Source: Gaiellaceae bacterium (GTDB lineage Bacteria > Actinomycetota > Thermoleophilia > Gaiellales > Gaiellaceae). Taken from it: a stretch of 29,780 nucleotides of DNA. Each line of letters opens with the position of its first letter. The stretch's first letter is position 1. The notes beneath the pieces are model-generated. The model was not told the DNA's origin, ran no database searches, and worked only from the letters and a program-made list of their open reading frames with translations. Shown here in pieces: positions 2,339-4,679 of the stretch. The position numbers were made by a program, and so were the translations under genes. The DNA lies in the NCBI GenBank assembly GCA_035689945.1, contig DASSLB010000165.1, forward strand, positions 1 through 29,780, read 5' to 3'.

Positions 2339-3397
2339 TCAATCCTCCCTCTTGTAGATCGGCTTCTTCACGACGCGGGCGCGGCGCTGGCGGCCGCGAA
2401 CGTCGATCGTCAGCTCGGTTCCGGGCGACGCCTGCGCGACCGGCACGTATCCCATGCCGATCCCGACTTCGAGCATCGGCGAATGCGAGCCGGACGTCAC
2501 CTCGCCACCTCCGTCGATCGACATCCCCTGCCGGGGAATCGCCTTGTCCTCCATCACGAACGCGACGAGCCGACGCTCGGGTCCCTCGGCCTTGACGCGC
2601 CGCAGAACCTCGACACCCTGGAACTCCTTGTCCAGCGCGCACACCCACCCGAGGCCCGCCGAGATCGCGTCGGTGTCCGGTCCGATGTCGTTGCCGTGCA
2701 ACGGATAGCAGACCTCGAGGCGCAGCGTGTCGCGCGCGCCGAGACCACACGGGACCGCGCCACGCTCGAGCACGGCGTCCCAGAGCCGCACCGCGTCCTC
2801 GGTCATGCAGAGGAGCTCGCAGCCGTCCTCGCCGGTGTAGCCGGTCCGGTTCACCATCACCTCGATGCCGTCGAGCAAGGTCTCGGCGTACGTGAACGGC
2901 GCCGCTGGCCGGAGCCCGAGCCGTTCGATCGCACGCGGCCCCTGCACTGCCAGGAGCGCGCAGTCGTCGGAGACCTCCCGAACGTCCGAGCCGTGAATCT
3001 CACGTTCCTTCAGCCAGGTGTAGTCGATCTCGCGGTTCGCCGCGTTGACGACGAGGAGGTAGGAGCACTCGCCGACGCGGTAGACGATGAGGTCGTCGAC
3101 GATCCCGCCGTCCTCGTTCGTCAGCAGCGTGTACTGCGCCTCGCCTACCGAGAGCCGGTCGAGGTCGTTCGAGAGTGCGCCCTGCAGGAGCTCCCGCGCG
3201 CGTGGCCCCTCGACCTCGAGCTCGCCCATGTGCGAGACGTCGAAGACACCGGCGTCCGTCCGCACAGCCCGGTGCTCGGGAATGACCCCGGAGTACTGCA
3301 CGGGCATCTCCCAGCCCGCAAACGGCACCATCCGCGCCCCGAGTTCGACGTGCCGATCGTGGAGCGGCGTGTGCAGGAGCGTCTCGGGCATCGGCAC
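2339..3397 (-). CDS. gcvT: Glycine cleavage system aminomethyltransferase T
   Basis: FAGWEMPVQY, GVFDVSHMGE, RTGYTGEDG, GLGARDTLRLE. Start is the GTG at 3397 (leaderless geometry) or the ATG at 3391. Confidence 0.97.
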   Translation of the reverse strand: MPMPETLLHTPLHDRHVELGARMVPFAGWEMPVQYSGVIPEHRAVRTDAGVFDVSHMGELEVEGPRARELLQGALSNDLDRLSVGEAQYTLLTNEDGGIVDDLIVYRVGECSYLLVVNAANREIDYTWLKEREIHGSDVREVSDDCALLAVQGPRAIERLGLRPAAPFTYAETLLDGIEVMVNRTGYTGEDGCELLCMTEDAVRLWDAVLERGAVPCGLGARDTLRLEVCYPLHGNDIGPDTDAISAGLGWVCALDKEFQGVEVLRRVKAEGPERRLVAFVMEDKAIPRQGMSIDGGGEVTSGSHSPMLEVGIGMGYVPVAQASPGTELTIDVRGRQRRARVVKKPIYKRED

Positions 3398-3402
3398 CGC
3401 CG

Positions 3403-3408
3403 ATCCTA
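3403..3408 (-). promoter_or_regulatory. Candidate -10 box (TAGGAT) for a leaderless gcvT transcript
   Basis: TAGGAT lies 5 nt upstream of GTG 3397. No SD is visible. Confidence 0.45.
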
Positions 3409-3415
3409 GTTGTGG

Positions 3416-3580
3416 CCGGGAAGCCGGGGTTCAGTCGAAACGTCCCCAGAACGGAGCTGCCCCGGCTCGTCCGAGGACGAGCCGGGGCAGCGGACCGGGT
3501 CGTGGGGTTGACTCGAATAGGGTCAACCCTGTTGAGGGCATCGACGATGTGCCCCGTTTCAACCGAGTCAAACCTCCCAG
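3416..3580 (-). ncRNA. Candidate structured RNA of unknown family in the ftsZ-gcvT gap
   Basis: Nested complementary segments: closing stem 3580-3571/3425-3416 (6 Watson-Crick + 4 G-U pairs, valid only on the minus strand), UUGACUCG/CGAGUCAA, GUUGA-GGGCA/UGCCC-UCAAC, AGGG/CCCU, CCCCA/UGGGG, and a perfect 17-nt inverted repeat 3456-3472/3475-3491. Confidence 0.55.
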
Positions 3581-3611
3581 GTCGTCGAGCGCGAAACGCC
3601 GCTCGCCGCCG

Positions 3612-4679
3612 CTATTCGTTGCGCAGGAAGGACGGCACGTCGAGGGTCTCGTCGCCGCCGTGCTCCGGCGGGCCCGACGAGACCGAGACCGGTGCCGCCT
3701 CGAAGCTGCCGCGACGCCGGCGGCGTCCGCCGCCGAACCCGGTCGCGATGACGGTGACGCGCACGTCGTCGCCCATCGCCTCGTCGATTACCGCGCCGAA
3801 GATGATGTTCGCGTTCGGGTCGGCAGCGCTCGTTACGACCTCCGCTGCCTCGTTCACCTCGAACAGGCCGATGTCGGGGCCGCCGGTGATGTTGAGCAGG
3901 ATCCCGGTTGCGCCCTCGATCGACGACTCCAGCAACGGCGAGGAGACGGCGGAACGCGCCGCTTCGGCCGCGCGGTTGTCCCCGCTCGCCGAGCCAATGC
4001 CCATGAGAGCCGAGCCGGCCTCGCGCATGATCGTGCGCACGTCCGCGAAGTCGAGATTGACGAGCCCGGGCACGGTGATCAGATCGGTGATCCCCTGCAC
4101 GCCCTGACGGAGGACGTCATCAGCCATCCGGAACGCGTCGACGACCGAGGTCTGCTTCTCGACCACCTGAAGCAGCCGGTCGTTCTCGATCACGATGAGC
4201 GTCTCGAGCCGGTCGCGCAGGTTTTCGATCCCCTGCTCGGCCTGCTGCGCGCGCTTGCGTCCCTCGAAGTTGAACGGCTTCGTGACGACGCCGACGGTCA
4301 ACGCCCCGAGCTCACGCCCGAGCTCGGCGACGACGGGAGCAGCGCCGGTCCCCGTCCCGCCGCCTTCACCGGCCGTGATGAAGATCATGTCGGCGCCCTT
4401 CAGCGCCTCCTTCAACTCGTCGCGGCTCTCCTGGGCGGCCGCCAGGCCGACAGCAGGATCGGCACCGGCCCCGAGGCCGCGGGTGGCCGCGGAACCGATA
4501 TGGATCTTCACGTCCGCGTCGCACCCCATCAACGCCTGAGCGTCGGTGTTCACCGCGATGAACTCGACGCCCGAGAGGCCGGCGTCCACCATCCGGTTGA
4601 CGGCGTTCGTGCCGCCGCCGCCGACGCCGACGACTCTGATCAGGGCGAGGTAGTTCCCGGCTGCGTCGCTCGTGCTCAT
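3612..4679 (-). CDS. ftsZ: Cell division GTPase FtsZ (355 aa)
   Basis: [14 protein letters not shown], tubulin signature GGGTGTG, T7 loop NLDFADV, C-terminal peptide LDVPSFLR. Confidence 0.99.

What the first reader, a model, noticed from the sequence alone, without database searches (positions are those of the whole stretch)
3416..3580. Unrecognised ~165-nt multi-stem RNA between ftsZ and gcvT that is not a glycine riboswitch
Seen in sequence: most of the ~215-bp gap folds on the minus strand. A closing stem CUGGGAGGUU/GGCUUCCCGG has four G-U pairs that would be A-C mismatches on the other strand, which fixes the orientation. It encloses a three-way junction (UUGACUCG/CGAGUCAA, GUUGA-GGGCA/UGCCC-UCAAC, AGGG-UUGA-CCCU) and a long rod (CCCCA/UGGGG capped by a perfect 16-bp stem with a CUCG loop), followed by an unpaired ACGUUUCGACUGAACCCC. 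An alternative 8-bp helix GGGUUGAC/GUCAACCC is mutually exclusive with the junction. Established knowledge: gcvT leaders often carry glycine riboswitches, but their GGAGA, CCGAAG and CAGG elements are absent here. Inference: gcvT appears to have its own leaderless -10 box (TAGGAT) 8 nt past the structure. The element may therefore be a stand-alone sRNA (for example an RNA-polymerase-binding RNA of 6S/Ms1 type; its 3' CUGAACC..GGCUUC loosely echoes 6S) or an ftsZ 3' element, rather than a gcvT switch.
Basis: partly seen in the sequence, partly recalled or inferred. Interest (0 to 1): 0.75.

Follow-up and report, generated by a model that had tools for sequence, protein, structure and literature searches.

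The report
Conserved small RNA gene beside ftsZ
The gap between ftsZ and gcvT in this soil actinobacterium (family Gaiellaceae) holds a previously undescribed, single-copy small RNA gene of about 94 nt, probably with its own stress-sigma-type promoter and terminator, rather than a riboswitch or a 6S-like RNA.

Summary
No Rfam 15 family matches it. Homologues lie between ftsZ and gcvT in 37 of 151 Gaiellaceae genomes sampled (16 of 64 genera), always as one copy.

The unit has been inverted twice independently relative to ftsZ and gcvT. In one species an IS element separates it from gcvT, and its distance to gcvT ranges from 13 to more than 1000 nt. It is therefore an autonomous gene, not a gcvT leader or an ftsZ 3' element.

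The 5' third is variable in sequence but rigid in length: GTTT-N15/16-(G/C)GG(Y)A, then 10 nt to an invariant UGCCCUC. This matches the actinobacterial SigF/SigB promoter consensus.

Best model: a SigF/SigB-type promoter (3573-3549), an sRNA from about 3541 to 3448 on the minus strand with a C-rich single-stranded 5' end, P3, the invariant linker CACGACCCGGUCC, and terminator P4. The target is unknown and there is no usable expression data.

gcvT has its own conserved -10 box (TAGGAT) and is essentially leaderless. This is a new member of a known kind, of moderate interest.

The parts
3570..3575 (-). A(G/T)GTTT motif; GTTT (3573-3570) is read as the -35 element of a SigF/SigB-type promoter
   Evidence: The two central T's are present in 63-65 of 65 distinct homologues. 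The distance from GTTT to TGCCC is 33-35 nt in 62 of 63 parsed sequences (the 63rd is a mis-anchored parse), although the sequence between varies. The motif is retained in both inverted lineages. It reappears upstream of hits found with the sRNA-only model R2.
3549..3554 (-). -10-like hexamer GGGCAC. The family consensus is (G/C)GG(T/C)A(N).
   Evidence: G at -13 in 64/65, G at -12 in 58/65 and A at -10 in 64/65, counted from the U of UGCCC. GTTT-N15-GGGCA matches the M. smegmatis SigF consensus GTTT-N15/16-GGGTA and its GGGCA and CGGTA variants (PMC4694148). It also matches Streptomyces SigB-homologue promoters (PMC8346170).
3530..3541 (-). Predicted transcription start (about 3541/3540) and single-stranded 5' end AUGCCCUCAACA. 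UGCCCUC (3540-3534) is nearly invariant.
   Evidence: The start is inferred from the 8-10 nt hexamer-to-start distance in Streptomyces SigB-type promoters. Position -1 is a purine in 54/65. This segment is unpaired in the MFE and centroid folds of the 96-nt RNA. TGCCCTC is 63-65/65 conserved.
3505..3529 (-). Hairpin P3: GGGUUGAC, a variable loop, then GUCAACCC
   Evidence: 8 pairs, 7 of them with compensatory changes, 98.3% of cells paired. The sequence is entirely replaced in other genera while pairing is kept.
3492..3504 (-). Linker CACGACCCGGUCC between P3 and P4. The GACCCGGUC core is invariant in 61 diverse sequences.
   Evidence: Invariant columns in A4. It is mostly unpaired in the fold. 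The flanking CGG/CCG mini-helix does not covary and is lost in the divergent genera, where the 3' side reads CCU.
3452..3497 (-). P4: long GC-rich hairpin. It has a 16-bp stem (3491-3476 / 3471-3456) with a CUCG loop, plus the basal CGG/CCG pairs. It is terminator-like.
   Evidence: 15 pairs (helices 4 and 5), 9 of them with compensatory changes, 97-99.6% of cells paired. The loop and tip vary in length.
3448..3451 (-). Short U tract (UUCU here; UUUU or UUUCU in relatives) marking the predicted 3' end
   Evidence: GTT is conserved after P4. The tract stays on the element's own strand in the inverted species. It fails a strict terminator rule of at least 5 U in 8 nt.
3403..3408 (-). gcvT -10 box TAGGAT. 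It does not belong to the RNA.
   Evidence: ACTAGGATCG is invariant in genus relatives. The variants TAAGAT and TAGCAT keep TANNNT but destroy AGGA, so it is a -10 box and not a Shine-Dalgarno site. The conserved ATG (3391-3389) lies 7-12 nt downstream.
3612..3614 (-). ftsZ stop codon (TAG), 36 nt upstream of the AGGTTT motif
   Evidence: In relatives the distance from the stop codon to the motif runs from an overlap to about 43 nt.

Best explanation
The gap contains an autonomous, single-copy gene for a small structured RNA restricted to part of the family Gaiellaceae (Thermoleophilia, Actinomycetota).

Proposed anatomy on the minus strand:
- A promoter of the SigF/SigB (group 3, stress) type: GTTT at 3573-3570, a 15-nt spacer, then GGGCA(C) at 3554-3549.
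- Transcription starting about 9-10 nt later, at about 3541/3540.
- A transcript of about 94 nt made of four parts. First, a single-stranded C-rich 5' end (A)UGCCCUCAACA. Second, the covarying hairpin P3. Third, the invariant linker CACGACCCGGUCC. Fourth, the GC-rich hairpin P4 with a short U tract, which ends the RNA at about 3448.
- In the common orientation P4 probably also terminates ftsZ transcription.

Shown: conservation, covariation, strand, single copy, independence from the orientation of its neighbours, and the fixed geometry of the upstream motifs.

Inferred: that the upstream motifs are a SigF/SigB-type promoter (about 0.5), the start site, and the function. I commit to a stress-induced, trans-acting regulatory RNA that pairs with mRNAs through its invariant single-stranded segments: UGCCCUC, which is complementary to the Shine-Dalgarno-like GAGGGCA, and/or GACCCGGUC. 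This mirrors mycobacterial F6/SfdS and other SigB-dependent sRNAs (about 0.35). Binding a protein is the alternative.
For: 1. No known family. There are 0 Rfam gathering hits in the window and only noise at E <= 10.
2. Conservation. DNA homologues were found in 27 same-genus genomes, all between ftsZ and gcvT. The covariance models found one copy per genome in 37 of 151 Gaiellaceae and none in 105 genomes of four other families of the order. The element is single-copy in its own genome.
3. RNA structure. Over 65 distinct sequences, 98% of cells are paired and 16 pairs carry compensatory changes. 0 of 500 shuffles reach this, and slid controls give only 31-51% paired.
4. Strand. About 130 G-U cells would be A-C mismatches on the other strand. 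The opposite strand scores only 20-36 bits, on the palindromic hairpin alone. The U tract lies on this strand in all orientations.
5. Autonomy. The unit is inverted relative to ftsZ and gcvT in L100, L122, L174 and L116. The FtsZ+GcvT tree requires two independent inversions. The distance to the gcvT -10 box ranges from 13 to more than 1000 nt, and in L029 a DDE-transposase IS sits in between.
6. Promoter. The GTTT-to-UGCCC distance is fixed at 33-35 nt and the GGYA-to-UGCCC distance at 13 nt in 56 of 59, although the sequence between varies. P3 and P4 loops, by contrast, vary in length. GTTT-N15/16-(G/C)GG(Y)A matches published SigF/SigB consensus sequences. Hits in further genera found with the sRNA-only model carry the same upstream motif at the same spacing.
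7. Sigma factor. A SigB/F/G-subfamily sigma above the curated cut-off is present in 126 of 151 Gaiellaceae. That includes all 36 sRNA-positive relatives, one of them (G258) only as a partial match just below the cut-off.
8. Fold. The 96-nt RNA has z = -8.3, with the 5' 12 nt and the linker unpaired.
9. Precedent. M. tuberculosis F6/SfdS is a 102-nt SigF-dependent sRNA (PMC8557902).
Against: - There is no transcript evidence. Only low-depth (about 2-2.6x) metatranscriptome contigs cover the region. They bridge into ftsZ and gcvT and could be DNA carry-over or read-through.
- The first G of the -10 is C in about a third of sequences.
- Canonical GTTT-N15/16-GGGTA sites are not clearly enriched genome-wide: about 15 non-rRNA sites in 5 genomes against 6-7 at control spacings, and 10 against about 4 in G000.
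- No such motif was found within 1.5 kb upstream of the sigma gene.
- The sigma factor is widespread, so co-occurrence says little.
- The U tract is short and fails a strict terminator rule.
- No conserved target was found. Perfect complements to UGCCCUCAA are no more frequent than reversed controls and are not orthologous. There is no notable pairing with the ftsZ translation start region.
- GGGCA/UGCCC (P2) could still pair in ftsZ read-through transcripts (96.5% of cells compatible, no covariation).
Confidence: 0.6

Rival explanations
1. The same autonomous sRNA gene, but transcribed by the housekeeping sigma factor. Here A(G/T)GTT (3575-3571) is an ANNNT-type -10 box and transcription starts about 7 nt downstream (about 3564). 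The RNA would be about 115-120 nt and would include the variable region and helix P2 (GGGCA/UGCCC).
For: AGGTT fits the minimal actinobacterial ANNNT -10 pattern (from my own knowledge). In two species the motif reads TAGGTT. P2 is compatible in 96.5% of cells, and the C-to-U change gives a U-G pair rather than a mismatch. In close relatives GUUUCGG/CCGAAAC can pair.
Against: The base at -12 is G or C, not T, in nearly all sequences. This reading does not explain why GGYA and an A two bases later are invariant at a fixed 15-16 nt from GTTT while everything between varies. P2 shows no compensatory change and P1 is not conserved beyond the closest relatives.
Confidence: 0.15
2. It is only the 3' end of the ftsZ mRNA: a stabilising 3' UTR structure plus the ftsZ terminator, with no independent transcript.
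For: In most species it lies 0-43 nt after the ftsZ stop codon, in the same orientation, with no other terminator in between. RNA-library contigs bridge the ftsZ 3' end and the element.
Against: Two independent inversions keep the whole unit intact while placing it antisense to ftsZ. Invariant stretches of 7-13 nt across 16 genera, more conserved than the flanking coding DNA, are not expected of a plain terminator.
Confidence: 0.12
3. It is a DNA-level element (protein-binding palindromes regulating ftsZ or gcvT, or a recombination or segregation site) rather than an RNA.
For: The plus strand folds almost as well (z = -4.89). P3, P4 and GACCCGGTC are palindromes. Function is independent of orientation.
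Against: About 130 G-U cells are asymmetric between the strands. Loop lengths inside the palindromes vary. The covariance model scores 100-156 bits on one strand only. The U tract is polar.
Confidence: 0.06
4. It is a riboswitch or leader that controls gcvT (for glycine, folate or similar).
For: It lies upstream of gcvT in most species, and P4 looks like an expression-platform terminator.
Against: No glycine, THF or ZTP model matches even at E <= 10. The distance to gcvT is 13 to more than 1000 nt, with an IS insertion tolerated. It points away from gcvT in the two inverted lineages. gcvT keeps its own -10 box 7-12 nt before the ATG.
Confidence: 0.03
5. It is a 6S/Ms1-type RNA that binds RNA polymerase.
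For: It is a stand-alone structured RNA of unknown function in an actinobacterium.
Against: There is no hit to the 6S or Ms1 models. There is no conserved long rod or closing stem. All five genomes tested have a separate weak 6S-like match (20-29 bits), in the four multi-kb assemblies at a syntenic place 34-69 kb away. The RNA is only about 94 nt.
Confidence: 0.02

Closest known systems
F6 / SfdS, the SigF-dependent sRNA of Mycobacterium tuberculosis and M. smegmatis
   Same: It is an actinobacterial intergenic sRNA of about 100 nt. It has a typical SigF promoter motif (GTTT-N15/16-GGGTA type) and is induced by stress or starvation (PMC8557902).
   Different: No sequence or structure homology: no Rfam family matches at E <= 10. 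The lineage (Gaiellaceae) and genomic context (ftsZ-gcvT) differ. SigF dependence, processing and targets are unproven here.
SigB-dependent sRNAs of Firmicutes (for example S. aureus RsaA, Listeria SbrA/SbrE); recalled from memory, not checked here
   Same: The logic is the same: a stress sigma factor drives a short terminator-ended RNA whose C-rich single strand pairs with Shine-Dalgarno-like G-rich mRNA sites.
   Different: Unrelated sequences and phylum. Pairing and targets are not shown here.
6C RNA of Actinobacteria
   Same: It is a small actinobacterial RNA whose conserved C-rich unpaired segments are thought to bind G-rich mRNA sites.
   Different: In 6C the C-runs sit in two hairpin loops. 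Here they are at the 5' end and in an inter-helix linker. No Rfam family matches this region.
3'-UTR-embedded sRNAs with their own promoter (for example DapZ and MicL in enterobacteria); recalled from memory
   Same: In the common orientation the gene sits directly after, or overlapping, the stop codon of the upstream gene and shares its terminator.
   Different: Here the unit also works as a free-standing gene in the opposite orientation. The sigma type differs and Hfq is not expected.
Glycine riboswitch / gcvT leaders
   Same: Only the neighbourhood is shared: it lies upstream of gcvT in most genomes.
   Different: There is no aptamer consensus and no Rfam hit. It is independent of orientation and distance. 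gcvT is essentially leaderless.

Membership tests
Glycine riboswitch (Rfam glycine family) | Match to the covariance model at the gathering score | tested here: not met
   0 gathering hits in the window. No glycine hit even at E <= 10 in 3300-3700.
Glycine riboswitch (Rfam glycine family) | Lies in the 5' leader, co-oriented with and close to the regulated gene | tested here: not met
   Inverted in two lineages. Spacing to gcvT is 13 to more than 1000 nt, with an IS insertion. gcvT has its own -10 box 7-12 nt before the ATG.
6S RNA / Ms1 | Match to the Rfam models | tested here: not met
   No hit at this locus. Separate weak 6S-like matches lie elsewhere in all 5 genomes tested.
6S RNA / Ms1 | Conserved long rod with closing stem and central bubble | tested here: not met
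   The closing stem is complete in 1 of 25 relatives. Only the local hairpins P3 and P4 are conserved.
ftsZ-DE motif / ftsZ 3' element | Rfam match and fixed sense orientation downstream of ftsZ | tested here: not met
   No Rfam hit. The unit is antisense to ftsZ in L100, L122, L174 and L116.
Intrinsic (Rho-independent) terminator | GC-rich hairpin | tested here: met
   16-bp perfect stem. P4 covaries and is paired in 96-99% of cells.
Intrinsic (Rho-independent) terminator | U tract directly after the stem | tested here: inconclusive
   UUCU here and UUUU or UUUCU in relatives, always on the element's strand. It fails the strict rule of at least 5 U in 8 nt.
SigF/SigB-type (group 3 sigma) promoter | -35 GTTT | tested here: met
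   The central TT is present in 63-65 of 65. GTTT is present in all parsed sequences, including genera found with the sRNA-only model.
SigF/SigB-type (group 3 sigma) promoter | Spacer of 15-16 nt between GTTT and the GGGTA pentamer (published range N14-19, mostly 15/16) | tested here: met
   The pentamer starts 15 nt after GTTT in 38 sequences and 16 nt after in 18. Consensus taken.
SigF/SigB-type (group 3 sigma) promoter | -10 GGGTA(T): three G's and an A at position 5 nearly invariant | tested here: inconclusive
   G2 is 64/65, G3 is 58/65 and A5 is 64/65, but G1 is G in 43 and C in 22. Position 4 is C in 32 and T in 26. GGGCA and CGGTA variants occur among published SigF-regulated genes.
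SigF/SigB-type (group 3 sigma) promoter | Cognate sigma factor encoded in the genome | tested here: met
   TIGR02980 above its cut-off in 4 of 4 near-complete relatives and in 126 of 151 Gaiellaceae. It was not found in the 77%-complete G000 itself.
SigF/SigB-type (group 3 sigma) promoter | Transcription start 8-10 nt after the hexamer, and dependence on the sigma factor | not testable with these tools
   Needs 5'-end mapping and genetics or in vitro transcription. The contig ends at 3548 and 3540 in two RNA libraries are only a weak hint.
Trans-acting base-pairing sRNA | Autonomous transcription unit, single copy, conserved unpaired segment | tested here: met
   Two inversions keep the unit. 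One copy per genome. UGCCCUC and GACCCGGUC are invariant and unpaired in the fold.
Trans-acting base-pairing sRNA | Identifiable conserved mRNA target site | tested here: not met
   There is no enrichment or orthology of perfect complements. The ftsZ start region pairs more weakly than background. These searches had low power.
F6/SfdS family | Sequence and structure homology | tested here: not met
   No Rfam family matches at E <= 10. The resemblance is functional only.

The most novel reading that the evidence does not exclude
The RNA is not an ordinary base-pairing sRNA. Instead it would be a stress-sigma-controlled RNA that binds a protein or a ligand through its invariant palindromic GACCCGGUC linker and its 5' UGCCCUC. 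It would be kept next to ftsZ because it couples cell division (or ftsZ mRNA 3'-end formation) to stress in Gaiellaceae. That would make it a new functional class of RNA tied to the dcw cluster.
Probability: 0.1. Interest if true: 0.65.

Novelty: new member of a known kind. Interest (0 to 1): 0.42.

Why it matters
Gaiellaceae are abundant soil Actinomycetota, almost all uncultured, and no regulatory RNA has been described for them. The two literature searches here returned nothing relevant.

This element is a well-supported new RNA family with strong covariation, invariant motifs and one copy per genome. Natural experiments (two inversions and an IS insertion) mark out the functional unit.

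If the promoter reading holds, it gives a first handle on the SigB/F-type stress regulon of this lineage. It would also be a second actinobacterial example, after mycobacterial F6/SfdS, of a stress-sigma-driven sRNA.

It is also a caution for annotation: a strongly folding gap upstream of gcvT is neither a riboswitch nor a single large RNA, and a third of the "structure" is probably promoter DNA.

Tried and rejected
- Rfam. The gathering scan of the whole window and the E <= 10 scan of 3300-3700 gave only noise (psbNH, snoRNA, miRNA).
- Repeat or mobile element. There is no second copy in the genome, only the self-palindrome.
- Small ORF. The motif alternates AGG and ATG, and conservation shows no codon pattern, so this was rejected by inspection.
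- ZTP / guanidine-III look-alikes. These were recalled from memory (GGGUCGUG lies on the opposite strand; ACCCGGUC). No model hit supports them.
- Expression.
  - Two run searches and one laying of four metatranscriptomes gave only contigs of depth 2-2.6, which bridge into both neighbouring genes.
  - Contig ends at 3548 and 3540 are at most a weak hint.
- Genome-wide enrichment of GTTT-N15/16-GGGTA. It is weak: 10 against about 4 in G000, and about 15 non-rRNA sites against 6-7 at control spacings in five genomes. One recurrent site is inside 16S rRNA. One plausible instance precedes a DoxX-like gene; this was not followed up.
- Autoregulatory promoter upstream of the SigB/F gene. None was found within 1.5 kb.
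- Target search.
  - Complements of the 5' end and linker in G000 gave scattered 9-12-mers, for example at a trkA-like start and inside csp.
  - TTGAGGGCA in five genomes gave 24 sites (3 of them the sRNA gene itself) against 27 for the reversed control, none orthologous.
  - The ftsZ translation start region pairs more weakly than background.
- Sigma/sRNA co-occurrence. This is uninformative because the sigma factor is in 85% of genomes.
- Earlier notes of this scan. Nothing bears on this element.
- Model R2 was built on a MAFFT alignment whose RNAalifold consensus missed P3, so it is mainly a sequence-plus-P4 model.
Full report
**Context and check of the observation.** On the minus strand the window encodes murB, an ftsQ-like gene, ftsZ (3612-4679; Tubulin and FtsZ_C domains) and gcvT (2339-3397; GCV_T domains). 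The gap between ftsZ and gcvT is 214 nt, at 3398-3611. The gap folds much better than dinucleotide shuffles on both strands: z = -5.45 on the minus strand and -4.89 on the plus strand. Rfam 15 gives no gathering hit in the whole window. At E <= 10 it gives only noise in 3300-3700, so glycine, THF, ZTP, 6S, Ms1, raiA and ftsZ-DE are all absent. The element occurs once in the 2.29-Mb, 77%-complete MAG.

**Relatives.** A DNA search of 60 relatives found the gap conserved at 72-88% identity in 27 genomes of the same genus, always between ftsZ and gcvT. An exact-pattern scan of the species-representative genome collection named the hosts. They are Gaiellaceae/Thermoleophilia soil MAGs; the remaining pattern hits were chance matches in other high-GC genomes. 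An sRNA-only covariance model (R2) found exactly one copy in 37 of 151 Gaiellaceae genomes, in 16 of 64 genera sampled. The counts include unpublished genomes (G199, G207). No sequence from them is used here.

**Structure.** RNAalifold on 26 sequences, and pair counts on 65 distinct sequences, support two hairpins.
- P3 (3529-3505) has 8 pairs, 7 with compensatory changes. It is completely rewritten in other genera while staying paired.
- P4 (3497-3452) has 15 counted pairs, 9 with compensatory changes.
- Overall, 98% of cells are paired and 16 pairs have double changes. 0 of 500 shuffles reach this, and slid controls give 31-51% paired.
- About 130 cells are G-U pairs, which would be A-C mismatches on the other strand. 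The opposite strand scores only on the palindromic hairpin. This fixes the transcribed strand as the element's own, which is the minus strand here.

**Autonomy.**
- In L100, L122, L174 (three species) and L116, the whole unit from A(T)GTTT to the U tract lies inverted between ftsZ and gcvT.
- An ML tree of FtsZ+GcvT places the trio inside forward-oriented relatives (sister to L108) and places L116 next to the forward L175. Well-supported branches therefore force two independent inversions.
- The distance from P4 to the gcvT -10 box ranges from 13 nt to more than 1 kb. In L029 the extra kilobase is an IS with a DDE transposase.
- The distance from the ftsZ stop codon ranges from an overlap to about 43 nt.

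These facts exclude a gcvT leader and argue strongly against a mere ftsZ 3' element.

**gcvT promoter.** ACTAGGATCG is invariant in the genus. The variants TAAGAT and TAGCAT keep TANNNT but destroy AGGA, so it is a -10 box and not a Shine-Dalgarno site. The conserved start is the ATG at 3391, 7-12 nt after the box, not the GTG at 3397 called by the ORF lister. gcvT mRNA is therefore leaderless or has a leader of at most about 5 nt.

**The 5' third is probably a promoter.** Between A(G/T)GTTT and the invariant UGCCCUC the sequence is highly variable but the length is rigid.
- The distance from GTTT to UGCCC is 33-35 nt in 62 of 63 parsed sequences (the 63rd is a mis-anchored parse).
- The distance from GG(Y)A to UGCCC is 13 nt in 56 of 59.
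- The loops of P3 and P4, by contrast, vary in length.
- The position profile shows TT (63-65 of 65), then 15-16 nt later (G/C)-G-G-(C/T)-A-N-A, with G 64/65, G 58/65 and A 64/65.

This window has GTTT-N15-GGGCA. That is the pattern reported upstream of M. smegmatis SigF-regulated genes: GTTT-N14-19-GGGTA, mostly N15/16, with GGGCA and CGGTA variants, including sigF itself (PMC4694148). It also matches promoters recognised by Streptomyces SigB homologues: GTTTnn-N12-14-GGG(T/C)A(T/C), with the first three G's and A5 almost invariant and the start 8-10 nt after the hexamer (PMC8346170).

By that spacing, transcription would start at the purine just before UGCCCUC, or at the G of UGCCCUC, at about 3541/3540. 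Homologues from further genera, retrieved with a model that does not contain the upstream region, again show GTTT-N15-(C/T)GG(T/A)A at the same distance. Both inverted lineages kept this region.

A SigB/F/G-subfamily sigma factor above the curated cut-off is present in 4 of 4 near-complete relatives and in 126 of 151 Gaiellaceae. That includes all 36 sRNA-positive relatives, one of them (G258) only as a partial match just below the cut-off. The genomes also carry 8-10 weaker matches to the same sigma model.

Several points weaken the promoter reading.
- G1 of the -10 is C in a third of sequences.
- Canonical sites are not clearly enriched genome-wide.
- No such site lies upstream of the sigma gene.
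- No start site has been mapped.

**Resulting model.** The promoter spans 3573-3549. The sRNA runs from about 3541 to 3448 (94 nt). It has a single-stranded 5' end AUGCCCUCAACA, then P3, then the linker CACGACCCGGUCC (GACCCGGUC is invariant in 61 diverse sequences), then P4 and UUCU. The 96-nt RNA folds with z = -8.3 and leaves the 5' end and the linker unpaired. The U tract is short and fails a strict terminator rule. Relatives have UUUU or UUUCU.

**Function.** The closest working analogue is mycobacterial F6/SfdS, a 102-nt SigF-dependent sRNA (PMC8557902). I therefore propose a stress-induced trans-acting RNA that uses UGCCCUC (complementary to the Shine-Dalgarno-like GAGGGCA) and/or GACCCGGUC. 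I could not identify a target.
- Perfect complements are no more frequent than reversed controls and are not orthologous across five genomes.
- The ftsZ translation start region pairs more weakly than background.

A 6S role is unlikely. The fold lacks a conserved rod. All five genomes tested carry a separate weak 6S-like match. In the four multi-kb assemblies it lies about 2 kb from the SigB/F gene and 34-69 kb from the element. SRP RNA is also elsewhere.

**Expression.** Only low-depth contigs from four metatranscriptome libraries cover the region. They bridge into ftsZ and gcvT, and DNA carry-over cannot be excluded. Two contigs from different studies end at 3548 and 3540, near the predicted start, which is at most a weak hint.

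**Verdict.** This is a real, conserved, previously uncatalogued sRNA gene of a subset of Gaiellaceae. The "stand-alone sRNA" option is right; the 6S/Ms1 and ftsZ-element options are not. It is a new member of a known kind, of moderate interest.

Noticed in passing
G184:C1:2522501-2522660 (L188); G030:C1:2077916-2078073 (L190); G150:C4:661961-662034 (L191); G083:C3:2032282-2032373 (L192); G000:C210:3344-3417 (L189): Sub-threshold 6S RNA matches (20-29 bits) in all five genomes tested. In the four multi-kb assemblies they recur at a syntenic place about 2 kb from the SigB/F/G-type sigma gene. This is probably the divergent 6S RNA of Gaiellaceae.
   Followed up: partly
L181:1501-1610, L182:1501-1607, L183:1501-1635 (genus g18): An unrelated element hit weakly by model R1. 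It consists of two near-identical hairpins (GGAUCCGGUAGGUCUUCGGACUCGCUGGAUCC-like), the second followed by a U-rich run (UUUUUUU or UUUUUGUU). It is not located next to ftsZ or gcvT and may be another sRNA.
   Followed up: no
L029:474-1520: An IS element (289-aa DDE_Tnp_1 transposase) is inserted between the sRNA terminator and the gcvT -10 box in one species. Both flanking features remain intact.
   Followed up: yes
window 3389-3397: The gcvT ORF is called from GTG at 3397, but the start conserved across about 60 relatives is the ATG at 3391. The mRNA is leaderless or has a leader of at most about 5 nt, with no Shine-Dalgarno site.
   Followed up: yes
window 3425-3440 and the same place in close relatives: A semi-conserved motif (G)UUUC(C/G)ACUGAG lies between the terminator and the gcvT -10 box in the closer relatives. 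It is absent in distant ones. Its function is unknown.
   Followed up: no
G000:C102, minus strand, about 112 nt from the contig end: GTTT-N15-GGGTA lies 10 nt before the ATG of a DoxX-like membrane protein. A DoxX gene is in the M. smegmatis SigF regulon list, so this is a candidate second SigF-type promoter in this genome.
   Followed up: no
L044, L046, L108 spacers between the terminator and gcvT: Extra spacer sequence of about 100-170 nt with GGTAC-rich repeats, palindromic in L044 and L046 (GGTACCTGGTACC), is present in a subclade only.
   Followed up: no
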